A stretch of 64,000 nucleotides of DNA, taken from contig NC_092356.1 of NCBI RefSeq assembly GCF_963676685.1, positions 67,766,001 to 67,830,000 of the forward strand, written 5' to 3'. A model generated the notes under the pieces. It did no database searches. It had not been told where the DNA came from and saw only the letters and a list, made by a program, of their open reading frames with translations. Shown in pieces: positions 1 to 28,667 of this stretch. The DNA comes from Mytilus edulis (lineage: Eukaryota). How positions within the stretch are numbered: the first letter of the stretch is position 1; every line of letters starts with the position of its first letter. The translations under genes and the position numbers were made by a program.

Positions 1-92
1 CCTAATGTACCAGTACAGATAGATTTAATCAAAGAGGAACAAGATACATTACAGTGTAATGAAATTATCTTCCAGTTCTTAGCCTTCTCCAA
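1..92 (+). CDS. NPHP4: NPHP4 exon (partial; [30 protein letters not shown])
   Basis: Open frame from base 1; donor AA|gtaagt at 93, phase 2. Confidence 0.9.
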
Positions 93-3000
93 GTAAGTAT
101 GAAGCAGGGATTTTCACATAGGTTTTATCTGTGTACAAACAGATTAAACACATGGGAGGTTACTTAGCTCTCTGAAAGTAAATGTTAAACTATAAATCAT
201 TGATTAACACTTCTTAGCACTCTCCACAATGATAAAATGTAGTTGGTTGTCTTAAATTTCTTTGTTTGTTAATATGTGACATTTTTTCCATTATTGTATG
301 GGACATTTTACTACTAAATTCAACAGTTTGTGTATTATAAAATGTTATGTAATTTAAGAAATGTTTGGTACAGACAGATACAAATATATGCTATTTTATT
401 GTAGATATGGTAGTGACATCCAAGAGAAGAATAAACATGCAGGGACAGTGTTCTTTACTTTCCAATTCTACAGGTGTCCACAAGTCACCACAGAAAGGTT
501 AGTGAGATATGTCTGTAGGTTTTACAGGTGTCCACAAGTCACCACAGAAAGGTTAGTGAGATATGTCTGTAGGTTTTACAGATGTCAACAGGTAATAATA
601 GAATTTCCACAATTAACTATAGAAAGGTAAATAGTTTATATATATTAACATGTATGTAAGTACCGTATAGCGGCTTATTTTTGCAGGTGTAAAATTTCAC
701 GATTTTTATTGAAAAAGGTATACGAAATATTTTGGCGGTTACTGATTTGGCGGATTCGAAACTTTTACCTTTGGATGTGTACTTTTAAATTGGCGGAATT
801 AATATTGGCGATTTTATTCTATCCGCGAAAATAACCGAAAATTTACACCCTGCGAAAATAACCCGCTATACCATGTATAAAAAATATCTTAAATGTGTTT
901 TATTTGTGTCCAAAAGTCAATACAGAAAGGTAAAATTGCTAACTGGTCTAAATGTTAAATTTTTAACCGGATTATTGACTTTTACCGTTCAGGAGTTATT
1001 GTTCTTGAAAGATTGAAAAATGGAGTTTCCAGTCGTGTCCGTGCATTTAGGCATGAACTGTTCTACCTAAGCTTCCCAAATTTTAATATGTTGTTACTGA
1101 TGACAAAATGGAGGTCAAGTTCAATAATGACGATTTTGACCTTTACCGTTCAGGAGTTATGGTTCTTGAAAGATTGAAAAATGGTGTTTCCAGTCGTGTC
1201 CGTGCATTTACGCATGAACTGTTTTACCAAAGCTTCCCAAATTTTAATATGTTGTTACTGATGACAAAATAGAGGTCAAGTTCAATAATGATGATTTTGA
1301 CTTTTACCGTTCAGGAGTTATGGTTCTTGAAAGATTGAAAAATGGTGTTTCCAGTCGTGTCCGTGCATTTTCTCATGAACCATTCAACCAAAGCTTTTGA
1401 AATTTTTATATGTTGTTACTGATGGCAAATTAGAGGTCAAGTTCAATAATGACGATTTTGACTTTTACCGTTCAGGAGTTATGGTTCTTGAAAGATTGTG
1501 AAATGGTGTTTCCATTCAGGTTGTTGCATTTACTCATGAACCATTCAAACTAAGCTTTTCAAATTTTAAGATGTTGATACTGATGACAAAATGGAGGTCA
1601 AATTTGATATTGACGATTTTCACTTTCACCATTCATCAGTAATGGTTCTTGTGATATTGCCAGGACACAAATAAATATTAATAAATCCGGTTTGCTGTCG
1701 TTGTGACAGCCTCTTGTTTCTGAACTTTTGCTTTCAGTCAAATATAAAGCGTTTATAAGAAAAATCTGCTTCATATACCATAGAGAGATTTATATACACA
1801 ATAGACAAGCATGAACGTAGAAGATTGGTTTACTTTCTAGCACTTTCAAAAAATATCTTATCAGAGCTGTATTTTATATTTATTTCAAAATGTGCACATG
1901 TGGTGTATTTTAACTAAGACCAAAAAATGACAATGTGTATGTTTTTGTTACAGACTGTTGTTGGCCAAACCCCAGAATGACCTGTCTTCAGATCCATTGT
2001 CCATGCCATTTATACTTCAGAGGTTAGAGAAGGATGGAGCCCTTAGTAATGGACCTCCTGGACTAGAGGTACAAGTGTTTTTATCTATTATTTTTTTTTT
2101 AAACCTGCAGGTCAGCATATGGTCAGCAACAAAAAAGTGTCTTTACAAAAGCATATTTATGTGTATTTATATAATGGTATATTATCAGTAGACTTTTTAC
2201 CACAAAATTTAACATACACCAAAAGCTCAATGTCCTTTAAAATGACTTTTTCAAGTCCATGAAACCACAGTTATGAACGCAGCAAAGATTTATCTACAAG
2301 GTGATCTAAATCAATAGAAAGAAGAAATTGCTAAACTAAACCGATAGATATAGTATTTCAAGCTCTTATTTGCTCTGAATAAAGAAATGAGTAAAAAACA
2401 TCCAACATTAACTTTCAAAGATATACAGGGATTATTTTGACCGTAAAATTAAAGAAATGCAATGATTTACATGCTACAAAGTTTAGAGAAAATAGACTGA
2501 ATAATTATTTTTTCAAGCATAATTGATGGATAGGATAAAAATGATAATAGATCTTTTGGTGATATGATATTATTAAAAACCTGACATGTAGTTATATGTG
2601 CATTTGCACTATTAATTTTGGGGCCCTTTATAGCTTGTTGTTGTGAGCCAAGGCTCTGTGTTGAAGGCCGTACATTGACCTTTAATGGTTTTCTTTTATA
2701 AATTGTTATTTGGATGGAGAGTTGTCTCATTGGCACTCATACCACATCTTCCTATATCTATTTGATATTTTTAGGTTAAATATTATATGGATCCAATGTC
2801 GATGAAGATAGGAGAAGTCAGTTTACTTTTGTCTCATCTATACAGACAGAGGTTACATATAGATGTATGGGACGGAGACTCTCTGATGAGGATTGGCTCT
2901 GCTTCAGTGCCTCTCATGGTAGGTAACTTTAATTATTTCTGTACTTAAGGGATTCATTCATAAGGGGGGGGTTCTGCTTCACTAACTCTCATGGTAGGTA

Positions 3001-6000
3001 ACTTTAACGATTTCTTGACTTGGGCATTTATATGGATGGATCTGCTTCTGTGTCTGTCATGGAAGTTATGCTCATAATAGAGATTTTCAGACAAGAACTT
3101 ACAAATCGTACAGTGCATTCAACTGTTTCCATTGATTGTCAGACTTTGGATTCCCTCACAAGGAGTGTTTTTGCTTTAATGATTCTCCTGACTAATTCCC
3201 TCTTTCAGTGTTTCTCAGAGTAAGTAAGCTTTACTTAGATGAATGGCTCAGTGTTCCCACATTAGAACTTATTCTGTTTTATTTATTGAAATAATATGAA
3301 TAAAAATGAAATAATGGGATCAGAACTCAGTTAAATATCTCACACTATAAATCATGCTATGGAAAAAAGATACTTTAATTTCTGCATGTTCATTAAAAAA
3401 AACTACAAGAGAATAAAGTTATGACATTTAGGTTATTATAAGAGGTTGCATGTATTACCTGATATCTATTGATTAAAGGTTATTATAAGAGGTGGCATGT
3501 ATTACCTGATATCTATTGATTAAAAGTTATTATAAGAGGTGGCATGTATTACCTGATATCTATTGATTAAAGTTTTAATTCCTATTTCAGTATTTATGTA
3601 GAAGTGGGCATGAAGCTGTTCAGTCGACCTTTGAACTGGATGTAGTAATGATGGAATATGATGACCCCAATCTTATAGCTGGTACCCAGAGTCAAGGTGC
3701 TCAGCCATTAGGGATCCAGTCCATGATGAAAGGAAAACTACATTTTAGGATTGCTAATGTTGGACATTATTCTGATCCTAAAGCCAACTTAATGGGTTGG
3801 TATTTATTTTATTATGATTGAACCATTGAAGGTAAATTTGTGATGTTGTCTTGCGTTAACTTTCCCAGATCAGCTACAGTTATTCATACATCAATGAGAA
3901 TGTCAACCAACAAGTTTTCCACCAACTATTTATAAAAGACAAATGTTGTATTGACATTTTTAATAAACTGTGTGAAAGATTTAAGAAATGGAAATAATAT
4001 AAATCAGATTTGAAAATGCAAGTTAAATTGGTATAACAATCAGACATTCAGTCCAAAAGAATCATGATATTGTTCCTATAATGTTAGATCCTAAATTTCA
4101 TTTATAGATGGCATGTTAACAAAAACACAGCAGGGTGAGGCTCTATATTACTACATTTATAATGTTATTTTTACATCCATTAGTCTAGTGTTGTGTAGAT
4201 TAATATATTAAATATTTTTCTCTATCTTTTAGTTTAAACTGTATATAATTATCTGTATCTCACTCTATTTTACATCTGTTTCTAAACTAATGTTGTCTCA
4301 GTTTGTTATAAAGATGAAGCTGCCAATCCCATCCCATACCTGGTCCTCAAAATATTTTGTTCCCCAATTTTAACAACATTTTAACCTTAATCATATCCCA
4401 TAATATGAAACCATCCTCTCCCCAAAGTATACTTGTCTCATTTTCTTCATGCAAATTTTGGCCCATATTCAAAGCCTTGTAGTAGACTTTTCAGTTTACT
4501 GGAAGAAAAACAAATATTTTAGAAACATATCTCAACCCAGGCAAAATGTCAGCTCAGCTTTTGGGATATTCAACTTTCTTTTCAAATGATGACCGATTAT
4601 ATTTATGTAGCGAATTCAGTTAAGACTCAAAATCGTCACAATAAATGTACAATGTATATATACTTTTTCAACACATAGCATGTTTAAATGCATTATTTTG
4701 TTAAAAAATGTCACTTAATTCATTCATGACCCACACCCTGATTAATTGAGTTGTTGGTATATGACCCATAAAAAGATTTTTGTTTAAAATGCAAAACTTT
4801 ATTTTGCCATGATACAGGTATAAGAAGTTGTGGAATGAGTGCCATTGAGACAACTCTCCATCCAAGTCACAAGTTGTAAAATGTAAACCATTATAAGTTA
4901 CAGTTTGCTTATTTTGGTCAAAATCTTATAAAAATATATCACATAAAACCAAGATCCAACCAAAATTGGAGTAAAATTAAAAATAAAACTGTTTTGACAA
5001 CTTACTGCACCACTCTGTAAAAAAATAAAAAGAAAAGATAAGTTTAGATTTGCACAATTACTATTTAATGAAATAGTATAGTCATTATTGTTGCAAAAGT
5101 ATTACCTAATTCCTTATTTCAATTAATAGTTGATAATCCAAACTTTCAATCATTTGACAAGCAATTCAGTTTTGAATCAGTTTGTTGAACCATATCTTGA
5201 ATGATCTGTCATTCATGACCTATTTAGTTTTACTTGCGTCTATCTCTACTTTAATAATACCATCTTTCTTAACAAAGTTTAGTTATATATTGTCCAAGAG
5301 AAAGGCTGCGTTAAAATACAGATGGGCCATTTTAAAAAAAAATGAGGCAAAAGTGTGACATGGGGGGTCCAATTTCAAACTCAATTTTGTCTTACCCTAT
5401 TACCGATACTTTAAATTTTATAATTCCAAAGTTTCAGGCAGAATGAAACAGACGCCTCCGGGTGCGGGAATTTCTCGCTACATTGAAGACCTGTTGGTGA
5501 CCCTCTGCTGTTGTTTTTTATTTGGTCGGGTTGTTGTCTCTTTGACACATTCCCCATTTCCATTCTCAATTTTACATTGAATAATCTTAAGTTTTGATAA
5601 CATACATCTCAAAAAATTTGAACAGAAACCATACTACTTATAAACAAGTTTGGTAATCAAACAGTTAAGAAAACATTGCTCAAACCTTTTCCAAATGAAA
5701 GACAATAGAAAAAGAAAAATTTTAAAACCAAAATTTCCATCTCTTCTGCTGAATCATATAATAACAATCAAATTGAATAGCTTAATTTGAAAAAAATAAT
5801 AATAACTAGTGATTGAAGTTTTTGCCAATAAAAAGAATCTTAATATATTTCAGTTAAAATAGTAAACTTTGAAAGCCCCGAGTTTTTGTGATAATTTGCA
5901 AAAAGAAAAATGTCATTTCATTGTACCGTTTTTATGTAATTGTATGTAGAAAAAGCCTTCTATTTTCTGACAGTATTTTGTCACACTCCTGACATATGTT

Positions 6001-9000
6001 ACAAAGATTGAAAAATGCTTTAAACTTTCACAAAATTCACTTAACACATTGCTATATCATTGATTTCAATTACTGATATCTTTTGCCATAGAACAGGACT
6101 TTCTTTTTAGGGCCATTTAAAAAAAATACAAAGAGAGGCACCCAAAAATGTCAGGAGTGTGACAACTGTCTTTAAACATCTACCAAAGAATACATAGGAC
6201 TTAAATGTTTTCTTCTTCTTTATATTTCAGAAGTGGCTATTCCAAAGAGAAGAAAAAAAATTATTACAACTGTGATATGTTTATATCATAGATGTGGTAG
6301 TGCATTATATATGTCAGGAGTGTGACGCTTTTTTTAAGACATTTTCTGTCAATTCATAATTTCACAAGGACAAGTCCCACAAGTTTCTTTGTGTTAGAAA
6401 TGTTGAAACCAAGTTATATTCCTATCATTTACCTCTTAAATGTGTTATTTATCATGATTGTTTTGGCACAATGAGTTTTAAATAGTAATTTTTCTATTTT
6501 TTGTGCACAGTAATGCAAATTCATCAAAGGAAATAAGTGTGTACAACTATAATATCATATAGGAAAGTGAGGTAATGAATTTTGTACAAAATAGAACAAT
6601 TATTTTGATTTAAAATGGTATATTTAAAGAAGTTTCAAGGATTAACCATTCGTCACACTCCTGACATGAATTTAACAATTTAAGAAAAATATGAAAATTA
6701 GCTTTATTTTTAGGACAGATAATTGAAAGACAGTTCGTAAAATGAAGAAAATTTTGGTAAAACTTCCATTCCTTAAAACATCTACTAAATTTGCTGAAAT
6801 AAGCAGGGCAAAATTCTCTAGAAGAAATCAATCAAAGAAAGAATCTTCGAAAGAGAGAACCCGAAAATACTGGCTGAATCTGAAATTAAAAGATGCACAA
6901 CACACAAGAAAACAACTGCCACAAAACCCAAATGCTTATGAATGATCTCGTCTAGAAGGCCCTTTCTTCTTGGTGTAGCATTTTTTATGATGTGTTTCAA
7001 AGTACTCGTCCAAGCATTTGGGTTTTGTGGCAGTTGTTTTCTTGTGTGTTGTGCAGGTTTTCTCACTGTAGATCTGGAATCTGACACAGTCACAGATCTG
7101 TTCTCATTTGAATTTTTGAGCTGTTTTTGTTTGATTCTAAGTCCTTATTCAACCCAACTTCTTTTTTAGCTCACCTGGCCCGAAGGGCCAAGTGAGCTTT
7201 TCTCATCACTTGGCGTCCGGCGTCCGGCGTCCGTCGTCCGTCGTCCGTCGTCCGTCGTCCGTCGTCGTCGTCCGTCGTTAACTTTTACAAAAATCTTCTC
7301 CTCTGAAACTACTGGGCTAATTTCAACCAAACTTGGTTACAATCATCATTGGGGTATCTAGTTTAAAAATTGTGTTCGGTGACCCCGCCAACCAACCAAG
7401 ATGGCCGCCATGGCTAAAAATAGAACATGGGGGTAAAATGCAGTTTTTGGCTTATAACTAAAAAACCAAAGCATTTAGAGCAAATCTGACAGGGGTAAAA
7501 TTGTTTATCAGGTCAAGATCTAACTGCCCTAAAATTTTCAGATGAATCGGACAACCCGTTGTTAGGTTGCTGCCCCTGAATTGGTCATTTTAAGAAAATT
7601 TTTGCTGTTTTTGGTTATTATCTAGAATATTATTATAGATAGAGATAAACTGTAAAGAGAAAAAATGTTAAACAAAGTAAGATTTACAAATAAGTCAGCA
7701 GGTCCAAAATGGTCAGTTGACCCCTTTAGGAGTTATTGCCCTTTAAAGTCAATTTTTAACCATTTTTCGTAAATCTTAGTTATCTTTTACAAAAATCTTC
7801 TCCTCTGAAACTACTGGGCCAAATTTAACCAAATATGGCCAAAATCATAATTAGGGTATCTAGTTTAAAAATTGTGTCCGTTGACCCGCACAACCAACCA
7901 AGATGGCCACCATGGCTAAAAATAGAACATAGGGGTAAAATGCAGTTTTTGGCTTATAACTCAAAAACTAAAGCAATTAGAGCAAATCTGACAAGGATAA
8001 AAGTTGTTTATTAGGTCAAGATCTAACTGTCCTGAAATTTTCAGATGAATCGGACAACCCTTTGTTAGGTTGCTGCCCCTGAATTGGTCATTTTAAGGAA
8101 ATTTTTGCTATTTTTGGTTATTTTCTTGAATATTATTATAGATAGAGATAAACTGTAAATAAAAAAAATGTTTAGCAAAGTAAGATTTACAAATAAGTCA
8201 ACAGGTCCAAAATGGTCAGTTGACCCCTTTAGGAGTTATTGTCCTTTATAGTCAATTTTTAACCATTTTTTTCGTAAACCTTAGTTATATTTTACAAAAA
8301 TCTTCTCCTCTGAAACTACTGGGCCAAATAAAAGCAAACTTGGCCACAATCATCATTGGGGTATCTAGTTTAAAAATTGTGTCCAGTGACCCAGCCAACC
8401 AACCAAGATGGCCGCCATGGCTAAAAATAGAACATAGGGGTAAAATGCAGTTTTGGGCTTATAACTTAAAAACCAAAGCATTTAGAGCAAATCTGACAGT
8501 GGAAGAAATTGTTTATCAAGTCCAGATCTATCTGCTCTAAAATTTTCAGATGAATTGGATAACTGGTTGTTAGGTTGCTGCCCCTGAATTGGTAATTTTA
8601 AGGAAATTTTGCTGTTTTTTGTTATTATCTTGAATACTATTATAGATAGAGATAATCTGTAAACAGCAATAATGTTCAGCAAAGTAAGATTTACAAATAA
8701 GTCAACGTGACTGAAATGGTCAATTGACCCACTAAGGAGTTATTGTCCTTTATAGTCAATTTTTTAAAATTTTCATAAAATTTGTAAATTTTTACTAACA
8801 TTTTCCACTGAAACTACTTGGCCAAGTTCATTATAGATAAAGATAATTGTAAGCAGCAAGAATGTTCAGTAAAGTAAGATGTACAAACACTTCACCATCA
8901 CCAAAACACAATTTTTCATGAATCTATCTGCGTCCTTTGTTTAATATTCACATATACCAAGGTGAGCGACACAGGCTCTTTAGAGCCTCTAGTTATCTTT

Positions 9001-12000
9001 CTTCCTTTTTTTCTACTGTTTCTCTGCCACTGCCTTTGTTTTTCTTTATATTGTTTATAAAATTTGAAATTCAAAGTTCTTCTTTCTTTAAGCCTTTTTT
9101 TGTTAGCTTGGTTTTGTAGTTTTTTATTTTGTTTAAGATTGTCCAACTTCCTCTGATCATTTTTCAATTTTATATTTAGCCAGTATTTGCGGGTTCTCTC
9201 TTCCCAAGTCTTTTTCTTTGAATCATTTCTTCTAGAGAATTTTGCCTGGCTTATGTCAGAAAGTCTAGTGGATATTTTAAGGAATGGAAGATTTACCAAA
9301 AGTTTCTTTATTTTACTAGCTGTCTTTCAACTATCTGTCCTAAAAATAAAGCTAATTTTCATATTTTTCTTAAATTGTTAAATTCATGTCAGGAGTGTGA
9401 CGAATTACATCTGAATGGTTAATCCTTGAAACTTCTTTAAATACACCATTTTAAATCAAAATAATTGTTCTATTTTGTACAAAATTCATTTCCTCACTTT
9501 CCTATATGATATTATAGTTGTACACACTTATTTCCTTTGATAAAGTTGCAATACTGTGCACAAAAAATAGAAAAATGACTAATAAAAACTTATTGTGCCA
9601 AAACAATCATGATAAATAACACATTTAAGAGGTAAATGATAGGAATATAACTTGGTTTTAACATTTTTAACACAAAGAAACTTGTGGGACTTGTCCTTGT
9701 GAAATTATGAATTGACAGAAAATGCCTTAAAAAAAGCGTCACACTCCTGACATATATAATGCACTCCCACATCTATGATATAAACATATCACAGTTGTAA
9801 TAAATTTTTTTCTTCTCTTTGGAATAGCCACTTCTGAAAAATAAAGAAGAAGAAAATATTTAAGTCATATGTATTCTTTGGTAGATGTTTAAAGACAGTT
9901 GTCACACTCCTGACATTTTTGGGTGCCTCTCTTTGGTGTCTATTAAAACAATAAAATATGTGATTTAGAGCACCAACATACCCTTAATTATAGTGCTTAT
10001 ATACCAATACAAACTTATTTCACATACTGACATTATTGGACTTTAAAACATGGTTACAAGGAAGCTTTAATTTTAAAAGTGTCATTTTTTGACAGACTTT
10101 ATTTTTTGTACATACCTTTACAATAAAGGTCAGTGTTTACTTATTTTAAAATTTTATTGGACAAAATTACAAAAATATTTAAGACTAATAATGTAGCAAC
10201 TACCAGAAATATTTCAGTGTAGCATAAAAACGATCCACTTTTTTCAATACTACTTTGAAAATTTCTAAATTTTTTAAATGTCACGCTAAAAGCGTCACAC
10301 TCCTGACAAAAATGGCCTGTTTTTAAAACATTTCTCTGAAATGGTTTGAGATATCTTCATGAAACTTGGCAGCAAGCTAGCCCTGACTATCCTGCATTTT
10401 ATAACACCTGAGTTATAATTCTAAACTTAACTAATATAGAAATATACCACAAAAAGTAAAAATCCTCATTGTTTTTGAAATGGCCCATATAATCTATGGC
10501 AGAATGTAATATCTAAATGTAGTATAGTTCTCTATAATCTTGTAGCTAGTCTCTCTCTATATATTATTTACAGTGTCCACTAAGTCTGCCAAAGTCATTT
10601 CAAATACAGCAGGTAACATTGCCTATCCTGGTGGCAGTCTAAATACTAATTATACAGGTAAATACACTAGTAATTATACAGGTAAATACACTCTAAGTAT
10701 CAATTATACAGGTAAATACAATATAAATACTGATTATACAGGTAAATACAATCTAAATACTGATTATACTGGTAAACATTTGCAAAAAATACCAGTCGAG
10801 AGAATGGTAAATTTCCTGAGCCAAAACCCGACGGAAATTCATTCTCAAGACTGGTATTTTTTTGTAAATACCCCTCCTTAACATGATATATCTGTTTAAT
10901 TACACCGAATGTTAACATATAAACGCATTGATGATCATGATGTTACAAGCGTCGAGTCGGATAGAGTATTTTTTGGCAAAAACCACGGCAGAGAGGGTAA
11001 AAAAGGCATATCCTTTCCATATACCTGGGCGCCATTAAAAAAATGAACAATATTCATTAAATAAAAGTAAATTGGTGAAAAATACACTGGCTATCAACCA
11101 ATCAAAATCTAGCATTCTAAGATAAGGTTTAGTTTAAACATATTTTATTGTTCAAAACAAATGGATTCGACACAAGTTTTTCAACTTAGTTCCCTCTTCT
11201 CCATAAGATAAGGTGTAATTATAGAAAATATATGATGAAACCACAGGTGTATTTTTAACGTCAGTAAAGGGTCAAAAGGTGATAAGAGGAATCAAACTTT
11301 TAGCTATATAACTAATTGATAGAATACTTTGTTACTCTGCACAAATTTTCTAATAACAACATATGTTTAGAAAGTTTTATTTTTCCTGTTAAGGTATTAC
11401 TCCAAAGAAGAAGGTAGCTCGAGCCCATCACATCACAGAAAGTAACAGAGAAGTAGCTGCCCTGCTTCACTCACATCAGGACCAAGTTATACCTGAGAGG
11501 GACAATAACCGTGAGGGAGACTCAGAGAAACTGAGGAAGTTATCACGTATGGAGGCTGTCAGACAGAAGGAAGGAATAGATAATAAGTTTAATACTATTA
11601 TGGTAAAAGATTTAATTATGTTGTTATAATTTTGAAATATCATTATGTGTAACATTTAAGTGCTAATTTCTCCTTCACATTTGGCAGATTGACCAAAATG
11701 AAATCTTACTTGATATTTATGGCATTTTATTATACCCCTTGGCTACTGAAGAGGGTGGTATGCTGCTTTATCTCTGTCAACTGCTCTGTTTCTTTCTGTC
11801 CATGCCTGCTTTTATCTCAAAGTTATGATACTAGCAGTGGCGTAGCTAGGTCATTTTTACGTGTACGCCATAATCTCGGCGAGGGATTCTGAGGGTTCCA
11901 AGCGGTTTCATTTCATAGCATCTGCTGATAGAAGTTGGAAGGGAGGGGCGAGATATCGAATATAAGATACCATTGCTATTAAGAATCTAAAACTGTTTTA

Positions 12001-15000
12001 TGTTTAATTCATTCATTGTCATGATTGTGTTAATTTGGAATCTAATGGTCATTGGTTTTATAGAAAATGTCCAAAGCAGTTACTTTTAAATACGTTTATT
12101 ATCAAATTAAAGTTACCATGGCGTAAAACAATTAATCGACAAAAACACCTTTTTATGTACAAACATGTTATTTAATGAACATTGAAATGTATACTTAATT
12201 TTCAGAAATGTTAAGGCGCACTATTAGAATTCGTAAAGTGTTCTGCGAAACCCTGGTTCACGCCTGGGATTGCTTTCCGCCACAGCTTGATAAGACCTAT
12301 ATTTTCTTGAACTGGTCAAGTTTCATGACAACATATGAAGGTTTATAAATTTATCATGTGAACTTAAATTCCGGACGGTCTGTTAATTGCGGAATAAAAG
12401 TATGTCTGTGAATATAGTAAATATAATACTGAAAAATGAAAGAAAAAAAACTTTCAAAATTTTGCTAAGAAATTCATATTATCGGTAAAATACGAGATAA
12501 TAAATAGACATCATTTCATCATAATCCTCTGGATACTCATTTTATCATCAACAGTTTCGGTCCAACTTCCATAAAATTTCATGAAGGAATGACAAAGTTA
12601 TTGATATATTTGTTTACCCCTTACTGAACCTTATATTATGATTGACGTGGCCGACGTTTAGAATCGCTATATATATATTTCTCACTTTTGCGACACGTTT
12701 GTCACAGGCTCGAAAAATAAGGCAAACCACATATCGAATTTCAGGAGATAATATATTGCTTTAAAGAAAAGCAAAGTGATTGAAATTCACATATTTCAGA
12801 CTTTGACAGAAAATGAACAAAAATATAATTTGATAACATTTGGTTGAAATAGGGAAAGTTTATTACTTTCAGTCGAAATTACAAGCAAATGAAGAAAGAA
12901 TTGCATGACTGATGTGTTTTTTCCTGTTCTTTTTATTTTATATCTTTTATCAAAATTCAAGTGTACGCCCGGGCGTTTTGACGTAAACGTAGCTACGCGC
13001 ATGACTAGTATTATGGAGCAACTGAGCAGGGTGATATAGACGGGGGGAAGGACGATAAGCTACTTTATCTCTGTCCACTGCTCTGTTTTTCTCTGTCCAT
13101 CTGTACCATTAAGTTATTGTCACATTTTTCTCAGAAATGTCTATTAAGAGCTTTCTGTAATTTGTTAGCGATAAATAAAAAACAGCTACCAACTACAACC
13201 ACTAGATTACAGGCTCCTAACTTGGGTAGGCACTTAGAAAATGTGATGGAGTTAAACATATTTGTAAAAGCTCAACCCTCTCTAAAATCTTAGACAGTGA
13301 TGTTATATGACAACATGCAAAATTGGTAACCTATTAAAAAACAGTCTATTTCACACAAACATGTTTTTCCTGAACATGGTGAAAAAAACTGTTTTGCTTT
13401 GTAATAAAACATATTTTTTAATATTCCCAGAATTATAAAACTGAGAAGCAGGAGAGGATGAGAGATTTTAAGACACTTGAGATTTACCGTAATCAGAGTA
13501 AGAAGGACGGAATCTTGAACATGCTCAGTCAGGCTATTACAACAGATCATGTGATCAACCCAGCATTCGGTAGTACAGAATTCTTTGAGTTTGTTCTTAA
13601 GAATCCCTACAATGTACAGCAAACATTTACTGTGGAGTTTGATGATAAATATTTACAGTAAGTTTTATTGTTATATTGGTAGAATTTGTTTATTTAATGA
13701 AATTAATGATGTAAATAAAAGAAGATGTGGAAATATGCTAATGAGACAAATGTTCAACAGCACAGACATCATCTAGAGGTCAAAATGCATACTTCAACAT
13801 ATCATGTATCTGTTAAAATTTGTATGCGTGCAATTATGGGGTAACCTTCATCAGCTGAAGGTAAATATTTAAAAAGTCTATTTTAGTTTGCAAAGAATTC
13901 AACAATGGATCAAAGATTACATACTCAGTTATCCAAATAAATAAAAAGTTGTGTGCCACCTGTAAATTGTTTTGAATCTGTTCTCACTACAGGACTCAAA
14001 TGATTATTGTATATACGATAAATTGGATGATGAATAAATGTAAGATGCAGTGCTTTATGACAGTAAAAACTTCCTATCTGTTTACAGTGTAATCACAGAT
14101 GCTAGGGAATGGAGATACTTCAAACAATTGAATGGTTTACAGTCACCATTAGAGGAGGGCATGTTTACCAAACAAAGTAAATCTCAGTTTGCTGAGATCT
14201 TCCTCAGACCTAAGGAAACAGTGTATATACCATTTAAATATCTGTCATTTAAGGCTGATCATACTGTTCATCCACAGGTATGTATATTAGGCTGATGGTT
14301 GTGAACCAAGATGGGGGCTTAAGTATGAAGGGAAGTTAGGGATAAGGACAGTCCCATAAAAACATGTGGTACCAAGAGAAGGCACTTTGTAATCTTCATT
14401 TTGGATGGGTGTTTTGTTTAGTGAAAAGGTAAAAGAAATTCTCAAATTACCTCTATAGATTGGTACCCAATATACAAAGTGGATTCCTTAGGTGCCATGT
14501 ATGTTTGAAGCTTGACTGCAATAGCTCTGTAAAAGCCTTTTTTATTTTATAATTTATTCAAATGCAAGAGTTGTCTATCTTCCAGTGGTTTCTCCTTGAA
14601 GTAATGTGTGTAGAGTTTATTTCAACAATCATATAATTGTATTTTCATAAAATAAATTGTAATCTAACTCTTTTTTTTTGTACGGCCGTTTATCATACTT
14701 CCATTTACTGGACATAATTCTCGTATACTGTTTTTTTCTGACAATATCTTTAAAGTGCTTTGAGCAGTTATCATGAAACTTTGGTGACTGGTTTATATCT
14801 ATTCAGATAACCTCCTTTTGGTTTGTCTTGATTTTCTGATGATATGACATCGAGAAGTTATTGAACTTTATTCTTTTAATGCGCTCATGGGACAGCTGTT
14901 TATTCATTTCATGTCTTATGTTTTCCATCTTTGCGCTTTATATGTTCCAATTTGAACTTTCTTTAGTATAAAAGTATATATATATATATATTGCATGTAT

Positions 15001-18000
15001 GTTTGACTTCTAATTTCTATTATTTTATTCAGGGACCAGTTGATCCATTCAAAAAAAGTGAAAAGAAGATTGAAAAATCAGAGGATACTTTGAAAGAAAG
15101 TCTGATTAGGGTATTTATTTAAATATATTGTTATCAATCAATCAATCTATATTGTTATGAAAAAAATGCTTTCTTATCTTTTTTCCATAAATGTACTTGA
15201 CCATTTCAAAGACATTTCTTTAATAAACAAATTACATTTCTAAGTTTTTCAGATGTACATGGTCTGAAGTAAACTATCATTAAAACACACTTTAAATACA
15301 ATACATCAATCAACACTGTTATTATCATATGCTTTCATTTTGACCTAGCTACTTACACAACTAGCATTACAAACTAATTTATCACATTTTCAATATTTGA
15401 AATGATAATTATTTTAGTGGCAGGAGCATATAGTCCTGTAAACAGTTTAAATTGAGACTTTCAATAATCTGCAATCAACTGCAAATTACCAAACCAGCCA
15501 AAAATATTAAGATATAATATTAAAACAACCACAGCAATTACTTTTCAAAGATGTGCTTAATTTCACAGTACTCAGTTTTATTTCTTGATTACTAATTTTA
15601 AGAATATGAGTTCAATTTTAGACTTTTTTTTTATTTTCAAACCTTCTGAAGCAATATATTTGTTTTCGATAGGCCTGTATTATTAAAATTTGATTACCTA
15701 TTATTTGTATTTTGTAGGTCCATTTTAATGGAGAAGATGGCAAGTCTGTATCTATCATGTCATTAAAGGTCCAACCTATACCTCATGTTATAGACCAGAC
15801 CTTTAGATTCCATAGTCCAGAACAGACATTCCTTAAGAGGTCCATTAGAATACCAATGGACTCCTTACCTGGTAAGATTATAGTGATGATTTGAAGTAGT
15901 TTTGTGTTTTCATTTGGTCGAGCTAACGTATCTCGATTATAACAACAAAGCCTCGGGTCTTTTGTGAATATTATAATAAGAAGATGTGGTATGATTTCCA
16001 AGGAGACAACTCTCCACCAAAGTTCAAATAACATAGCAGTAAGCAATTGTAAGTAACCTTCTAGCTGTCTACAATTAGTAAACCTATACCGCACAGCTAC
16101 AAAAGGCCCTGAAATGACAAATGTTCAATAACTCAAAAGAAAAAACTAACGTCCTCATTTATGTACAAAGAAAAAAACAAATATGAAACACAGCAACAAA
16201 CTACAATCACTATTGTATTGCAGGCTCCTGACGTGGGACAGACACATTCAGAATGTTGCAGGGTTAAACATGTTTGGTGGCGACTAACCCTCCTGCTAAC
16301 CTGTTTTTTTATTTTATCACAAACTGTAGTCTTATGATATATATATATTTAGGAGTGCCTGTAGGAGGTCGAGGACTGAATCAGCTTTTTGTAAGATGCA
16401 GTGATCCTAATATAATAACAGAATGTAAAGCTACACAACCAGGAGAGCCACTTGATGTGTATCTAAAGGTATACTATAGATCACATCTATATTTTGGCAT
16501 GTCTATATTTAGACGGGAACTGCAGAAAATCAAAACCACAAGAAAATTTGGATATGATTTAAATTCAAATAAAGATATTCTTTACATGTTTTTATTCTCT
16601 GTTGATTGTGTATATCTCCATAGTTATAGCATTATAATATGTTTCATTATTCTGTTTAAAAAGTTGACAACATCTAATTATAAAACAAATATTGCACATA
16701 TTCTAAGATTTTTCCAGAAGAATGCAAATGAAGTATTTTATTAAAATGTTCATTGATAGGGATTTAGATATAATAGATGTTATAGATATTGAATTGAATT
16801 ATTAATAAAATTCTTAGCAGTTTTCTCATACCTGTAATATTTGTTCAGTTAGCAATGGGTGCTTCTCTTTAAATGATTAAGAATTTACAGTATAAAGGAT
16901 ATTGAATTGTCTTGTTCATACAATTATGTTTATCTTATGATATTTGTAGGTAGCAATGGGTGCTTCTCTTTAAATGATTAAGAATTTACAGTATAAAGGA
17001 TATTGAATTGTCTTGTTCATACAATTATCTTTATCTTATGATATTTTACAGGTAGCAATGGGTGCTTCTCCCCAGATTAAGAGATTTTATATAGCCATTT
17101 TCACTGATGCCTTTATGTCCAAGCCTATTCAGGTTTGGCAAGTCTACGCCCATTCTCTACAGAGAGTCGATGTGTCCTGTGTGGAGGGACAAACTTCAAG
17201 ATTCTCATTACTACTCAGGTTAGTAATAAAAGAAAAGTGTTATGCCACTTTTGGGGGGAGGGGAGTGGGGATGGGTGAGGGTAAGACTTAAAGAATGAAG
17301 ATTCACAGATTTGAAACAATTAAAAGGATTATATTTTCAAATGTAAATGGAAGGCAAAAAATGACAAAAACAAAGTTGTATCCCTTAAAGAATTGAATAA
17401 AAAATTAAAACCTTGGAAAGTATTTGCTGAACCATATCTGGTATGATTGCCTTGTGCCACATTGTTACATGGTAAAGATTAACAACAAAACTGCTTTCAA
17501 ACATTGACCTGTTTGTTTCAGTCATTGGATTTGAATGTAATATTCTGGAACTATTATTTGTTACTTTAAGTCTAATAGAACCAATCATATTGAATAAGTG
17601 AAATTCAACATGTTTAAATACTCAATGCATGCTACATCATTTGGTCTCTTGTAGAGAGTTGTCTCATTGGGACTCATACCACATCTTCTTACCTTTTATG
17701 TATTACCCTACCAATTATTTGTTAGAATTTATCCAATTTGGACCAAATTCAGTCTAGTGCAAACTTTCAAAGTGTTAGTATTTTGATGTTATAGATGCTT
17801 ATGTGTGTGCCAAAGCCTTAAAAATCATGATTATTCATGATACATCCAGAGGGTTATGAATTTATCGAACATTTTTATACAGGTCAACTCGTGCTTTATA
17901 CTTTTGTGATATATAAATTTTGATACTCTATATATTTTTTTCTATTTCAGGGGAACACAGTCATCTCGTCTTGTTAGATGTTTTTCGTCTAACGATCAAG

Positions 18001-18473
18001 AAATGCAGCTGTATCCAAATGAACAATTTATGTTAGCTGCCGGTGCCGTCCATGAACTCAGTGTAGCAGTCCGTCCATTGAACGAGGGCATTAAAATCTT
18101 CCATCTAAATGTCGTAGATATTGAATACCACCAATTGATTAGAAACTGGTTGATTTGTGTCACCTGTCGATCTCCGATGATTTCACGGGTGTTTGATCTT
18201 TCATTACCCGTGGGAGGAGGAAAGGGAAGTAGCAAGAGAATAACTTATACAAATCCCTACCCCCACAAAAAGACATTTATCCTACTCACAAATGAGCCGG
18301 AATTGTTACAGTTTAAAGAAACACGAATTGAAGTTGAAGGTGGAGCAGAACACACAATAGGATTACGCTTTGCCCCAGTGATGAAAACTGGAGCATCTGA
18401 GGTGATGGTGTTTATTAATGATGAGGATGACAAAAACGAGGAGACATTTAAAATAAATGCTACTTATAGTTAA
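1..18473 (+). CDS. NPHP4: Nephrocystin-4, 3' portion of a multi-exon gene (5' end lies outside the window)
   Basis: Exons 1-92, 405-497, 1954-2068, 2775-2918, 3591-3795, (4108-4134 optional), 10574-10657, 11394-11602, 13431-13657, 14088-14277, 15033-15110, 15718-15871, 16353-16468, 17052-17218 and 17951-18473 join in frame with GT-AG introns. Peptides [66 protein letters not shown] and [13 protein letters not shown] match remembered NPHP4 motifs. Confidence 0.93.
405..497 (+). CDS. NPHP4: NPHP4 exon (YGSDIQ...[18 protein letters not shown])
   Basis: Acceptor tgtag at 404; donor AG|gttagt at 498; phases match the neighbouring exons. Confidence 0.88.
468..635 (+). repeat. 54-bp tandem duplication of an NPHP4 exon end plus donor, with a degenerate third copy
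   Basis: tacaggtgtccacaagtcaccacagaaag|gttagtgagatatgtctgtaggttt x2; donors at 498, 552 and 627. Confidence 0.9.
661..871. mobile_element. MITE with ~35-bp imperfect terminal inverted repeats
   Basis: gtatagcggcttatttttgcaggtgtaaaattt ... aaatttacaccctgcgaaaataacccgctatac. Confidence 0.75.
960..1718 (+). mobile_element. Non-autonomous Helentron/HINE-like element with ~4.5 x 161-bp internal tandem repeats
   Basis: Units recur at 977, 1138, 1299, 1460 and 1621; subterminal inverted repeat aaccggatt/aatccggtt; 3' hairpin gctgtc-gttgt-gacagc; T-rich ends. Confidence 0.75.
1954..2068 (+). CDS. NPHP4: NPHP4 exon (LLLAKPQND...GPPGLE)
   Basis: ttacag acceptor, gtacaa donor, phase 2->0. Confidence 0.88.
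2600..2760 (-). mobile_element. SINE-like interspersed repeat fragment
   Basis: Motif agatgtggtatgagtgccaatgagacaactctcc also occurs at ~4825, 13722, 15980, 17655, 30118 and 40320. Confidence 0.6.
2775..2918 (+). CDS. NPHP4: NPHP4 exon (VKYYMDP...[22 protein letters not shown])
   Basis: tttag acceptor, gtaggt donor, 144 nt, conserved DVWDGDSL. Confidence 0.92.
3431..3571 (+). repeat. 47-bp x3 tandem repeat just upstream of an NPHP4 acceptor
   Basis: ggttattataagaggtggcatgtattacctgatatctattgattaaa at 3431, 3478 and 3525. Confidence 0.92.
3591..3795 (+). CDS. NPHP4: NPHP4 exon ([11 protein letters not shown]...[13 protein letters not shown]...)
   Basis: tttcag acceptor, G|gttggt donor, phase 0->1. 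Confidence 0.9.
4108..4134 (+). CDS. NPHP4: Candidate 27-nt symmetric microexon of NPHP4 (DGMLTKTQQ)
   Basis: tttcatttatag|ATGGCATGTTAACAAAAACACAGCAGG|gtgagg; phase 1-1, no stop, fits between two phase-1 junctions. Confidence 0.45.
5450..5575 (+). mobile_element. SINE-like 3' fragment
   Basis: Homologous to 52955-53080 and ~58830-58880 (gggttgttgtctctttgacacattccccatttccattctcaatttt). Confidence 0.6.
7165..8994 (+). mobile_element. Helentron/HINE-like element with a (cgtc/cgt)n microsatellite and ~3.3 x ~505-bp tandem units
   Basis: 5' tttagctcacc ... 3' ggtgagcg subterminal inverted repeat; terminal hairpin aggctct-tt-agagcct; units at ~7283, 7786 and 8291. Confidence 0.85.
10574..10657 (+). 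CDS. NPHP4: NPHP4 exon ([27 protein letters not shown])
   Basis: tttacag acceptor; first of five tandem donors at 10658; phase 1-1. Confidence 0.82.
10648..10777 (+). repeat. 24/30-bp tandem repeat of an exon end plus donor (attatacag|gtaaatac) x5
   Basis: GT donors at 10658, 10682, 10712, 10742 and 10772. Confidence 0.92.
11394..11602 (+). CDS. NPHP4: NPHP4 exon ([12 protein letters not shown]...[15 protein letters not shown]...)
   Basis: ttaag acceptor, ATG|gtaaaa donor, phase 1->0. Confidence 0.88.
11835..13003. mobile_element. Non-autonomous hAT-like DNA element with 5-bp TSD ACTAG
   Basis: Termini cagtggcgtagcta / tagctacgcgcatg; actag at 11830-11834 and 13004-13008. Confidence 0.65.
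13431..13657 (+). CDS. NPHP4: NPHP4 exon ([12 protein letters not shown]...[26 protein letters not shown])
   Basis: cccag acceptor, gtaagt donor. Confidence 0.92.
14088..14277 (+). CDS. NPHP4: NPHP4 exon ([12 protein letters not shown]...[14 protein letters not shown]...HPQ)
   Basis: ttacag acceptor, gtatgt donor. Confidence 0.92.
15033..15110 (+). CDS. NPHP4: NPHP4 exon ([12 protein letters not shown]...SLIR)
   Basis: ttcag acceptor, gtattt donor, 78 nt, phase 0-0. Confidence 0.85.
15718..15871 (+). CDS. NPHP4: NPHP4 exon (VHFNGEDGK...[25 protein letters not shown]...)
   Basis: tgtag acceptor, gtaaga donor. Confidence 0.92.
15978..16295 (+). mobile_element. SINE-like interspersed repeat
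   Basis: aagaagatgtggtatgattt...gagacaactctccacc...caggctcctgac shared with other copies in the window. Confidence 0.6.
16353..16468 (+). CDS. NPHP4: NPHP4 exon (VPVGGRG...VRCSDPNII...[10 protein letters not shown])
   Basis: tttag acceptor, gtatac donor. Confidence 0.9.
16840..17085 (+). repeat. ~101-bp tandem repeat of an acceptor plus exon start (ag|gtagcaatgggtgcttctc) x3
   Basis: Copies start at 16849, 16950 and 17052 (the real exon). Confidence 0.92.
17052..17218 (+). CDS. NPHP4: NPHP4 exon ([12 protein letters not shown]...[22 protein letters not shown])
   Basis: ttacag acceptor, gttagt donor. Confidence 0.92.
17951..18473 (+). CDS. NPHP4: NPHP4 terminal coding exon ([12 protein letters not shown]...[11 protein letters not shown])
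   Basis: tttcag acceptor; contains ORF 18003-18473; stop TAA. Confidence 0.94.
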
Positions 18474-24539: not shown

Positions 24540-24720
24540 TTAAACCTTGACTAACTACATCGTGTACCTCTTTGATAATGCTGTTTATCATTCAACTGTT
24601 ATGGAATTATGTGACTGACATTAATCTGATGTATTATGTTTCACTAAATGACTACTGTCATGCAATCTTTTGGTTTAAATAGAAACAAACATCAGAAGTA
24701 CTGCATCAGTAAAGTCACTT
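24540..24720 (+). promoter_or_regulatory. Conserved proximal promoter block of the C1qDC genes
   Basis: Alignable with 29375-29550 and 47365-47530; shares tttgataat, tattatgtttcactaaatgactactgtcatgc and a TATA-like tttaaata/tataaata. Confidence 0.55.
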
Positions 24721-24753
24721 GGGAAATAAGCCGAAAACCACGCCATAGTCAAC

Positions 24754-27700
24754 ATGATAATAGTTTTATCATTTATTCCTATATTGCTGTTTTGTGGACA
24801 AATGACAACTGCTAAAGGAGACTGTAATCGAAAACTTGGTAAATATATCTTACTAGAATATATGTTGTACATATATCATCGTTTATATCATTGCAACAAT
24901 TAGCATTGTTAATTCATAGAGATGTGAGGGCATTTTTGCGTCGATATATTGCTACATGTATGCGTTCACTAATTATAAATGTACGAACTGACTTATTATA
25001 AATAGTAATTGCTCAATACAGATGTAAATTTCGTCAGAATGGAGAACTAGATAATTATAAGTGTATGTTAAAAATTGCTATCAAGTAAGTTAAGAATTAT
25101 TTCTTTTTGAAGTTAAGGTTCTGTTAACAGTTATCAAAGGTACCAGGATTATAATTTAGTTCTCCAAACACACGTTTCGTCTACCTACGACTCACCAGTG
25201 ACGTTCAGATCAAAATAGTTATAAAGCCAAACAAGTACAAAGTTGAAGAGCATTTGTTAAAATAGTTTTGTTGTGGTTTTTTTTTCAGTCCAAAAATAAT
25301 AAAGGCATTATGCATGCTGGATGTGATACTTCAAGTTTAATTTGATGCACAAGTTGCTAAACATTCTCAAATTTACATATTTACTCTTTAATTGTAGAAA
25401 ATGCCTTATTTGATGACCTCCTTCAGATGATGCTGAAAATCAAGGGATCAGGTAGGTTATCTTACACAATCTACGTAATTATATTCAAAGTTGATTAATG
25501 TTGCATATATCTGAATATTATTGTAGAATATTTCTTGGATATTGTTATTTTTCTACTCATTTTATTTAAAGGGATAATTCGCGATTTCTCACTTTTCATC
25601 TTATTATGTTCATAATACCATAAAAAACATATTCACCAAGTTTTATTTCGATATGAAATCTAATAAAGAAGAAAATTGGGAATTATTAATTTTATTTCTT
25701 GAAACTTCCTGACTTATGTGACGTAGTTTAAGTCTTTTTGCATGTCGGGAGTGAAATTAATCTCATTTAAGTCTTGTTCGTTAACCATCTTATAACGCGA
25801 TTTAAAGCGCATCGACGACTTTTGGTGTAGCTATTAACCAACGAAAAATAAGTGATAGCCATGCAACTTTTAAAGTTATATCGTGTGGAATTTTTAAAAC
25901 GAATTTTAATAATAAAAGTAAATCATACAATAGAACATTTTTATGATTTTTTTTCTACAAATACTTTAAACAAACATATGAAACTGACATGATCGATAGT
26001 GTATTAAAAATACATGTTTGTATTCTGACCTTTTTGCTTCATTCCAGTAAACATTTTCACTTGCTTGTACGGTGCAAATAAAATGTGTATTGTTTTGTGA
26101 CACCTAAAGAATGCTGAATGCGTAGTTTAACTCAAGGTAATTAAAAGATTAGCATTATGTAATGCTAATCTTTTGATCCTCATTCAGTGAAATCTAGGCG
26201 TCACGGTTCACTGGCATTTCAGGTGTGTACAACATTTCGTATGAATGGTAAACGGGAGTCAGTCAACGTTTTAGACACAGAAATGTAAAAAAATAATTAA
26301 AATTAATTAACGGGAATAATAAGGTCGCACAATAACTGGAAAGATGTTGTATATTTTTATATTTTGCATAAGATCACTTTTAAATGAATTATGACTTTTG
26401 ATTACTTAAGTAACGATAAAATACTGAATTATTTTAATTGAAGTATAAATTTATAAATAAAAATAGCCTTCTAAACACGAGTGTATGAACTAAAAATTGT
26501 ACTATTTTAAATTAGGATCGGCAGCCTTAAATATTTCAAACAGATCATTAACAATTGCAATTATATAATTTAGTCCATCCAAAGTGATCTTTATTTACCT
26601 ATTTAGGAATTAATGTTCTCATCAAAATATTTTAAATCTCACAACGCTTGAATACTTCAGATATTTGAAAAAAAAGATATGTAAAAAATTGACAGGAAAT
26701 TAAAGGATCTTTTTGGAATGGAATCGGAAAAATTACGAACAGATATGCTTTTCAAGTGTGAAAAACATCAACAAAATTTATACATAATCGGGAATGTCCT
26801 TAGTAAAGTAGTCTTCGTCTCACACCGTAACTATATATAATACTTTAGCTATTTGACCAACGATGTATAAAAAAACCAGAACGAATTTAATGTCATCTTT
26901 CCCTATTTTTTTAATGTAATTATAAGTCTGTTTCAACTGGCAAGAATACCCTTAAAGCGGACAAGCAGTTTATTCTCTAAATTGCTGTCATTGAATATCA
27001 AGAGAGAAAATAAATCCCGAAATTGATTTGAAACTTTGATACTCAATAGTTTTCCTGGAAAATATTCACATCCCTTAGGGATTATTAGTGTACGTCCAGT
27101 TGCGTATATATTACATGCATGTCGGAACAATTGTGATGATGACGAATTTCTTCCTTTATTCGAGAACAATCTAATTGATATATAAATGTCCATAACTTCG
27201 ATGAGCCAAAGAAAGTTATATATCGACCTGTATTTAATCTCTTCTTCTTCTTTTGGTATACAATAGTCTATCGACATTCGATGATTACATACTGTTGGCA
27301 TACGTGGACTAGTCTATTTACAAAACTTTTACCCCAATTTACACAAAATGTATGTTTCTTTCTTATGTTCAATGTATACATGTATATATTTTAATTTGCG
27401 CTATAGTTCCGTAACTTATTATCCAGGCGTATATACGAATGGTCGACAAGTGCGTACATTTTTTTAAATCAATATTTCTGGTATGTTCCGATCTGTCCTT
27501 CACTATTGACAACGAGTATAAATTACATTTTACCAAATTTACCTTTGGAAAAAATATGTATATAGATTTTTATTTCATCAAATCTGTTGTTTTTTGTTTG
27601 TTTTTTTTGGTATTATTTATATTTTTATTAATAATTTTCTTTACACCAGAAATGTTATTCATAAACAAGCGTATGAGTTTAGTAATGACTAGTATATTAT

Positions 27701-28667
27701 ATCACTTTCGGACACGCAAGATAGGGATGTATATTATACACCTAATAGTTCAAAATGGAAAGTTATAAGTGATCGGCCGTGTACACTGATCAATATCATA
27801 AGAAGTGAAACGATGCATGAATTTGCAACCTCGACCGGAAATCGCTTGAATACCTGGACGTGTCACCTCACACCCCTTACAATACCTTTGGGAGTAATAT
27901 CTTTAGCCATGCGGGTGATCAGTGGAGCGAAGATCCTAATTTATTTGAATAAAGTTTATTACATTAAAGAATTATGAACTAATTAGATTTTCGAAAACAA
28001 TTCAAGTTTCACGGAACACTTAATTATTTATGATTTGAAATTTGACTTTTTAACTAATTCCAATATTATCAGTCTAAAAATAACAGATCAAACAATGTAG
28101 GTTACACTGTACCCAAAACAAAATTAATGTAAGTGAATATTTTCTTATACATTTATTATATATCTTACAGTAGAAAGCAATTATTATCTACAAAATAATA
28201 TTTTACTTTTCCAGCACTATTCAAAAATACCCTTTTTTATAGGACGTTCAAGTCATGTTCGTTTACCAAAGAAAAAAGACTTCCCTGCTTTTACAGCATA
28301 CAGATCATCTTCACAATCTTTGTCTGTAAACGAAATCGTCAAGTTCGATAAAATTTGGACAAATAATGGAGATGGATACGACCCCAGCAGCGGAGTTTTT
28401 ACAGCTCCATTAGCGGGACTGTATCGTTTTGCAGCAGTTGTAATGTCTGTTTCTGACGCTGTCTTGTATTTAAGTCTCTATCACAACGACGCACAGATAA
28501 CATCAAGCTATCTCAGTGACAAGGGATACAAGACTGGGACGTTTGATGTTGCTTTGACGTTGGAGCAGGGAGACAAGGTGTCAATTAGATCTAGAAGTAA
28601 AAGTCAGACAATATTCAGTGACGGTAGTAACTACTGTACCTTTTCAGGAAACCTGTTTGCTATGTAA
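24754..28667 (+). CDS. Secreted C1q-domain-containing protein 1 (exons 24754-24838, 25398-25451, 28243-28667)
   Basis: Signal peptide exon MIIVLSFIPILLFCGQMTTAKG; all introns phase 1 and GT-AG; gC1q motifs PAFTA, VKFDKIWTNNGDGYDPSSGVFTAPLAGLY, LEQGDKVSI, TFSGNL. Confidence 0.92.
25127..25255 (-). mobile_element. Decayed retrozyme fragment in C1qDC1 intron 1
   Basis: Matches 36092-36220; hammerhead core mutated (CUGGUGA, GUU site). Confidence 0.75.

What the first reader, a model, noticed from the sequence alone, without database searches (positions are those of the whole stretch)
405..17218. Systematic splice-junction echoes: at least five NPHP4 exon borders are tandemly duplicated into the intron
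Seen: apart from those inside transposons, most of the gene's tandem repeats are centred on splice sites. Donor 498 is copied at 552, 627 and ~930; donor 2919 at 2994, ~3062 and ~3220; donor 10658 four more times; acceptor 17052 at 16950 and 16849; and probably acceptor 3591 as the 47-bp x3 repeat. Unit lengths differ (24-102 bp), the sequences are unrelated, and copies often decay away from the true exon. Inference: a mutational process targets exon-intron borders (for example splicing/R-loop-coupled repair or slippage at nucleosome edges), or selection retains such duplications. I know of no standard name for this pattern.
Basis: partly seen in the sequence, partly recalled or inferred. Interest (0 to 1): 0.75.

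Follow-up and report, generated by a model that had tools for sequence, protein, structure and literature searches.

The report
Splice donors seed intronic tandem repeats
In this probable mussel genome, exon ends are copied head-to-tail into the next intron (a known oddity called 'mirages'), and in 30 other genes tested this happens two to three times more often than expected at splice donors, mostly strong ones, but not measurably at acceptors, which likely reflects a local tendency to duplicate DNA near donors that splicing then filters.

Summary
Four of the five claimed echoes are real (donors 498, 2919, 10658; acceptor 17052). The 47-bp x3 repeat is not a detectable copy of exon 3591. One more donor array lies just upstream in the same gene. 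The pattern has a name: 'mirages' (lancelet), like the human F7 intron-7 VNTR. This scan has noted it before in this and other genomes, with enrichment left unresolved. I tested enrichment on 759-767 homology-annotated introns in 30 genes. Donor-spanning arrays: 42 against 14.3 expected from unique intron DNA (2.9x, gene bootstrap 2.2-3.9), or 21.1 counting repeat families (2.0x). Acceptors: 17, not enriched. A hold-out set with predictions written beforehand replicated this (18 of 238 donors, 7.6%, against 0.6-1.3%). The rate rises with donor strength (3/189 to 21/191). The excess lies in young-looking, multi-copy arrays; two-copy duplications alone show no significant excess, and GC content does not explain it. 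The copies drift like neutral DNA, and the RNA joints shown at 10658 and 17052 use the true sites. Best reading: a duplication or amplification bias near donors plus a splicing filter. The molecular cause is untested.

The parts
1..18470 (+). 3' part of a probable NPHP4 gene: an exon ending at 92, then 405-497, 1954-2068, 2775-2918, 3591-3795, 10574-10657, 11394-11602, 13431-13657, 14088-14277, 15033-15110, 15718-15871, 16353-16468, 17052-17218, 17951-18470
   Evidence: Open frames across the exons; RNA joints for 5 introns; last exon nearest Ig_NPHP4 clusters at 0.97 with low recognition value; Pfam ASH E=2.5e-5, below cut-off
469..590 (+). Donor mirage 1: 54-bp unit x2.3; true GT at 498, identical decoy GT at 552
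   Evidence: 52/52; contigs of X1 and X12 end at 498, as expected if both carry the duplication (inference)
606..631 (+). Older partial copy of the donor-498 junction (decoy GT at 627)
   Evidence: 19/23, p=0.0015
661..879 (.). Repeat-family insertion between the 627 and 930 copies
   Evidence: up to 7 hits in the 2-Mb sample; very high depth in DNA runs
906..934 (+). Older partial copy of the donor-498 junction (decoy GT at 930)
   Evidence: 23/26, p=0.0005
2890..3237 (+). Donor mirage 2: true GT at 2919; decayed copies at 2970-3021, 3034-3068 (GT lost) and 3200-3237
   Evidence: first copy covered by DNA contigs of X1, X12, X14
3430..3572 (.). 47-bp x3 intronic repeat ending 18 nt before acceptor 3591; not a demonstrable junction copy
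   Evidence: exon match p=0.35; single locus
10638..10776 (+). Donor mirage 3: 24/30-bp units x4.8; true GT at 10658, decoy GTs at 10682, 10712, 10742, 10772
   Evidence: RNA joint from the first donor to 11394 in 42, 17 and 41 reads
16837..17070 (+). Acceptor mirage: 101-bp unit x2.3; true exon start 17052, decoys at 16950 and 16849
   Evidence: RNA joint 16468 to 17052 in 30, 10 and 52 reads

Best explanation
These are mirage minisatellites, tandem copies of an exon end with its splice site, which in the 30 genes tested are two to three times over-represented at splice donors, likely because DNA around donors duplicates or amplifies more readily and purifying selection on splicing likely removes the arrays whose decoy sites get used. 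Shown: the copies; their excess at donors but not acceptors; the rise with donor strength; neutral-like drift of the copies; use of the true site in the RNA joints seen. Inferred step 1: a unit of about 30-120 bp, typically about 48 exon plus 22 intron bases, is duplicated and then expanded by slippage or unequal exchange more often near donors than deep in the intron. Inferred step 2: the exon-side site keeps being chosen, so the mRNA is unchanged; arrays behind weak donors, and perhaps many acceptor arrays, mis-splice and are purged. The molecular cause of step 1 is not identified.
For: Array-level test on 759 introns in 30 genes: donors 42 against 14.3 (2.93x, gene bootstrap 2.15-3.91) or 21.1 (1.99x, 1.35-2.81); acceptors 17. 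Hold-out with predictions noted beforehand: 18/238 donors against 8/1442 unique and 25/1944 all intronic positions; dynein 9/129, enzyme genes 9/109; acceptors 5/238. Selection can only lower a rate, so an excess over intron background needs extra origin, amplification or retention (inference). Donor-strength quartiles: 3/189, 7/185, 11/195, 21/191 (discovery p=0.02, hold-out p=0.0002); the effect holds with GC covariates (p=0.0012) and with a plain consensus count, 0 of 57 donors with 5 or fewer matches. Arrays that start in the first 30 intron bases and mostly copy no full donor are also in excess (15 against 4.9) but sit at ordinary or weak donors (6, 4, 4, 1 by quartile), so strength matters only when a decoy is made, as a filter predicts. 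The excess is greatest at 95% identity or more (24 against 6.4). GC predicts about 1.0-fold. Echo variants are mostly non-synonymous (104 of 149). First-donor choice is shown for human F7 (PMC1557585).
Against: A plain per-position control found intronic queries repeated as often as, or more often than, junction queries; it counts transposon arrays and every copy of an array. TRF alone gave only 1.8x (unique) and 1.3x (all) for both junction types pooled. Two-copy duplications show no significant donor excess (12 against 7.6, p=0.07; 12 against 12.6 with repeat families), so the bias may lie in amplification, not origin. Decoy GT and AG are not preferentially destroyed (254/260 and 44/45 intact), and an acceptor array of more than 200 units persists in the methylmalonyl-CoA mutase gene; both argue that any filter is leaky. 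The genes are conserved dyneins and enzymes, annotated by homology and not by RNA. The repeat mask comes from about 2 Mb only. The RNA table was truncated (15 joints shown, 368 not), so low decoy use is not excluded.
Confidence: 0.55

Rival explanations
1. A splicing-coupled mutational process: co-transcriptional recognition of the 5' splice site (U1 binding, polymerase pausing or an RNA:DNA hybrid) would make nicks or breaks at strong donors in the germ line, and their repair would duplicate and expand the local DNA. No selective filter is needed.
For: One cause would explain donors exceeding acceptors (42 against 17-18, p=0.003) and the strength gradient, with the weakest quartile at background (1.6% against 1.9%). 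Donor-like motifs in deep intron arrays are not enriched (4 against 3.0 sense, 2 against 2.7 antisense), so the bare DNA motif does not look sufficient (low power).
Against: Donor-adjacent arrays without a decoy are not at strong donors. Multi-copy acceptor arrays are also somewhat enriched (13 against 6.9, p=0.018), and acceptor units amplify as often as donor units (67% against 71%; intronic units of 45 bp or more 22%). No direct evidence of lesions.
Confidence: 0.2
2. Duplications arise uniformly. Arrays anchored in an exon are lost more slowly, or exchange more easily between haplotypes because exons are conserved, and so they accumulate.
For: The excess is concentrated in multi-copy arrays and two-copy events are near background. 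Exon copies cannot be deleted (established knowledge).
Against: Slower loss predicts older arrays, but the excess peaks at 95% identity or more and the exon copy stays about 95% identical to all copies. Anchoring should be symmetric between donors and acceptors. No significant sign of imported synonymous alleles among echo copies (58/378 against 91/754, p=0.14).
Confidence: 0.17
3. Extra donor copies are favoured by selection, for example as added U1 binding sites that protect AT-rich introns from premature cleavage.
For: Echoed donors are strong and decoy GTs are mostly intact.
Against: Decoy motif columns vary as much as their flanks (43/323 against 321/2407, p=1.0). Old copies in this gene decay and one lost its GT.
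Confidence: 0.06
4. Assembly or annotation artefact.
For: Twelve junctions were first called on echo copies and moved, and one acceptor was still wrong. Two of the four arrays in the window were not checked in DNA.
Against: Copies differ from each other by substitutions, indels and a transposon-like insertion; independent DNA runs hold the 2994 copy; swap nulls give 0 of 3988.
Confidence: 0.02

Closest known systems
Mirage minisatellites of amphioxus (Adh3, globins BflGb6/9, PGBD5, TnC). Seen: passages of PMC3087553 and PMC3902484. The original 2002 paper (PMC117041) is not held and was not read.
   Same: The repeat unit spans an exon-intron boundary and duplicates the splice site; both boundaries can be copied; units of 10-160 bp; splicing reported as normal; generating mechanism stated as unclear.
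   Different: A probable mollusc, not a cephalochordate. The passages describe single loci; they report no frequency, no enrichment test, no donor-acceptor asymmetry and no dependence on donor strength. Copy-number instability was shown there and is not tested here.
Human F7 intron-7 37-bp VNTR and similar cases (CBS, 6-16, LMNB2, PDGF). Seen: abstract, Introduction and Discussion of PMC1557585.
   Same: The first monomer spans the donor, identical pseudo-donors follow, and the most upstream site is used.
   Different: A handful of human genes, against 42 of 759 donors in 21 of 30 genes here. In two human cases the nearest pseudo-sites are also used; this was not resolved here.
Variable internal tandem repeats in human segmental-duplication genes (PMC2812944; passages)
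   Same: Minisatellites at exon-intron boundaries of about 30 bp x4.
   Different: Recent paralogues and intron formation. Here the genes are conserved and no new intron was shown.

Membership tests
Mirage minisatellites | Repeat unit spans an exon-intron boundary | tested here: met
   4 of 25 sites in the window; 42 donor and 17 acceptor arrays in 759 other introns. Not met for 3430-3572.
Mirage minisatellites | Copies carry potential duplicate splice sites | tested here: met
   GT intact in 254 of 260 and AG in 44 of 45 copies; window decoys score like the true sites, except 3062
Mirage minisatellites | Mature mRNA uses the authentic site | tested here: inconclusive
   Joints at the true sites seen for 10658 and 17052; 498 and 2919 are not among the 15 rows shown; 368 rows hidden, so minor decoy use is not excluded
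Mirage minisatellites | Copy-number polymorphism or instability | tested here: inconclusive
   Only short-read contigs over 1-4200; they break at the 54-bp array and show substitutions and small indels in the 2919 cluster, but give no copy number
Transposon-internal satellite or dispersed repeat | Unit recurs at other loci | tested here: not met
   None of the four junction clusters falls in the repeat-family mask of the 2-Mb sample, apart from the 661-879 insertion; the units contain this gene's coding sequence
Alternative (duplicated) coding exons | Copies under coding constraint | tested here: not met
   104 of 149 variants among echo copies in 24 arrays change the amino acid; unit lengths are not biased to multiples of 3 (15 of 42 donors). 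Tested on the wider set, not on the window's copies.

The most novel reading that the evidence does not exclude
Recognition of a strong 5' splice site makes the underlying germ-line DNA prone to tandem duplication and expansion, so the splicing machinery itself shapes where minisatellites are born. About 1 in 10 of the strongest donors in this genome would then carry a mirage for mechanistic, not selective, reasons.
Probability: 0.22. Interest if true: 0.82.

Novelty: new variant of a known kind. Interest (0 to 1): 0.6.

Why it matters
Mirages have been described gene by gene since 2002, with the mechanism called unclear. A measured, replicated, donor-specific and strength-dependent excess makes their origin testable: population alleles can separate mutation bias from selective filtering. 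If about 5% of donors carry decoys genome-wide, there would be thousands of natural experiments on 5' splice-site choice, and a large supply of raw material for intron gain or sliding. They also mislead gene annotation: 12 of my 767 junction calls first landed on copies.

Tried and rejected
(1) Fifth echo at 3591: rejected. (2), per-position control: no enrichment; set aside as the main test because it counts transposon arrays and every internal copy, but reported as evidence against. (3), array classification: a bug in segment extension inflated the acceptor counts; discarded and redone. One search crashed and was redone. (4) GC content as the cause: predicted fold 0.96-1.08. (5) Polar growth from the exon: not seen. 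(6) Microhomology at breakpoints: inconclusive; 7 of 28 donor arrays end within 12 nt of a whole unit against 5.9 expected. (7) Inter-allelic import of synonymous alleles: p=0.14. (8) Copying from a spliced RNA: rejected by reasoning, since the units hold exon and intron in pre-mRNA order. (9) Rows dropped: one 19-kb cross-paralogue 'intron' and one junction within 300 nt of a region end; 7 introns over 6 kb from array-level tests, one of which carries a donor array; one mis-called acceptor. The unit-length window 50-125 was chosen after seeing discovery data; in the hold-out it gave donors 13 against 2.5-3.3. (10) Literature: 10 searches listed no genome-scale enrichment test; for most hits I saw listings only. 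The library lacks most subscription journals and the original mirage paper. PMC3188502 was seen as an abstract only and not used. No supplements were opened.
Full report
Setting. The window is G000:C13:67766001-67830000 in a 1.37-Gb genome. Earlier notes on this genome call it a mussel; I did not establish the species. Positions 1-18470 hold the 3' part of a probable NPHP4 gene. The last exon is nearest to Ig_NPHP4 clusters (0.97, but with a low recognition value) and has a sub-cut-off ASH match. Exons were set by frame, and RNA joints confirmed five introns.

Observation. Four of 25 splice sites have an adjacent intronic copy at the test's floor of p=0.003: donors 498, 2919 and 10658 and acceptor 17052. 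The fifth claim fails: the 47-bp x3 repeat stops 18 nt short of acceptor 3591 and matches the exon at chance level (p=0.35). Upstream of the window the same gene appears to carry another donor array, 42 bp x about 11 at L207:8099-8583, behind an open exon-like frame (no RNA check). DNA contigs from 3 of 4 runs cover donor 2919 with its first copy. Two runs break at 498, which is where a 31-letter assembly graph would branch if the 54-bp duplication is present (inference, word length recalled). In three RNA runs the joints shown use the true donor 10658 (42, 17, 41 reads) and the true acceptor 17052 (30, 10, 52 reads). Only 15 joints were displayed and 368 were hidden, so rare decoy use is open.

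What it is. Tandem repeats whose unit spans an exon-intron boundary were named mirages in amphioxus. They reportedly do not disturb splicing, and their origin is called unclear (PMC3087553 passages; PMC3902484 passage). Human F7 intron 7 and a few other genes have the same layout, and the most upstream donor is used (PMC1557585). This scan has noted many single cases, six of them donor arrays in this genome, and one urchin gene where enrichment was left unresolved (unchecked AI notes, used as leads only).

Enrichment test. I fetched about 2 Mb around 20 dynein heavy-chain genes and 10 metabolic-enzyme genes. Introns were called by protein homology with GT-AG refinement. Twelve junctions that had landed on copies were moved to the exon side, which left 767 introns. 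Predictions were written down before the hold-out was analysed. Position-level test, counting only the first copy of an array: discovery donors 23/528 (4.4%) against 1.5% of unique and 2.1% of all intronic positions; hold-out donors 18/238 (7.6%) against 0.55% and 1.29%; acceptors 16/766 (2.1%) against 1.3% and 2.1%. The control positions are autocorrelated, so those p-values are too small. The array-level test avoids this: in 759 introns, 42 donor and 17 acceptor arrays against 14.3 expected for each under uniform placement in unique intron DNA, or 21.1 with repeat-family arrays included. Gene-bootstrap ratios are 2.93 (2.15-3.91) and 1.99 (1.35-2.81) for donors, and 1.19 (0.45-1.96) and 0.81 for acceptors; 21 of 30 genes carry a donor array. 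Results against: a naive control that counts every repeated intronic position shows no excess; TRF on the discovery set gave 1.8x and 1.3x for both junction types pooled; two-copy duplications alone are not significantly enriched (12 against 7.6, or against 12.6). This gene, at 4 of 25, is above the average of 60 of 1520 (p=0.016).

Anatomy. Junction units are long (median about 75 bp against 42) and amplified: 71% of donor and 67% of acceptor arrays have about three copies or more, against 22% of intronic units of 45 bp or more. Donor units hold a median of 47.5 exon and 22.5 intron bases. The excess is largest at 95% identity or more (24 against 6.4), and there is no decay gradient away from the exon. 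GC does not predict intronic array density. Echo frequency climbs with donor strength, 3/189, 7/185, 11/195, 21/191, in both data sets, and survives covariates and a different score. Arrays starting in the first 30 intron bases are also in excess (15 against 4.9) but are not at strong donors. The copies behave like neutral DNA: decoy motifs vary as much as their flanks, 104 of 149 variants among copies are non-synonymous, and differences fixed between the exon and all copies lean to third codon positions (13 against 7).

Mechanism. Purifying selection alone cannot lift a rate above the intronic background, so something adds or keeps arrays near donors (inference). Slower loss of exon-anchored arrays predicts old arrays and symmetry between the two exon ends, and neither is seen. 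I therefore favour a bias toward duplication, or more probably amplification, around donors, followed by a splicing filter. The filter explains why strength matters only when a decoy is created, and may explain the acceptor deficit (confidence 0.55). The bolder rival is that donor recognition itself is mutagenic (0.2). It explains the asymmetry and the gradient in one step, but not the weak-donor, decoy-free arrays. An acceptor array of more than 200 units in the methylmalonyl-CoA mutase gene shows that acceptor decoys can be tolerated, so any filter is leaky. The breakpoint microhomology and inter-allelic exchange tests were inconclusive.

Limits. Thirty conserved genes, not the whole genome; homology-based junctions; a repeat mask from 2 Mb; one haplotype; no copy-number data; the original mirage paper not read.

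Verdict. The locus is a real, dense example of a known kind. The donor-specific, strength-dependent excess was not found in ten literature searches and makes the origin of mirages testable. Interest 0.6; new variant of a known kind.

Noticed in passing
L207:8099-8583 (about 1.4-1.9 kb upstream of window position 1): A further donor mirage in what appears to be the same gene: 42 bp x about 11, behind a Pro/Gln/Met-rich open frame at 7951-8136. A purely intronic-looking 26 bp x25 array lies at L207:4532-5189.
   Followed up: partly
L175-L182 (G000:C2:96.436-96.460 Mb), methylmalonyl-CoA mutase gene: Giant acceptor mirage: a 90-bp unit in blocks of about 8 and about 215 copies (about 20 kb), with repeat-like DNA between; the complete exon follows the last copy.
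   Followed up: partly
L096-L101 (G000:C8:41.77 Mb) and L042-L048 region (G000:C3:43.77-43.78 Mb), dynein genes: A donor mirage of 64 bp x87, and a 147-bp donor unit in blocks of 16 and 4 copies across an 11-kb intron.
   Followed up: partly
window 5323-10491: The 6.8-kb intron holds a large repeat-family element whose two arms look like inverted copies of each other, with a nested element of about 503-bp internal repeats at about 7165-8994 that is abundant in RNA runs.
   Followed up: no
window 970-1723: 161-bp x4.2 array belonging to a high-copy family; 161-169-bp units recur in many introns sampled.
   Followed up: partly
window about 24700-31020: Two near-identical tandem gene copies whose last exons (about 28250-28670 and 30590-31010) look like C1q domains, read by eye; not tested.
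   Followed up: no
window 36092-36924: 355-bp x2.3 array at 100% identity, probably a very recent repeat-element insertion.
   Followed up: no
G000:C10:63585766-63589101: A nearly intron-free glycogen phosphorylase gene besides the intron-rich copy on C3; possibly a retrocopy.
   Followed up: no
G000:C3:10.10-10.19 Mb: Three tandem partial or complete copies of a 2-oxoacid dehydrogenase E1-like gene.
   Followed up: no
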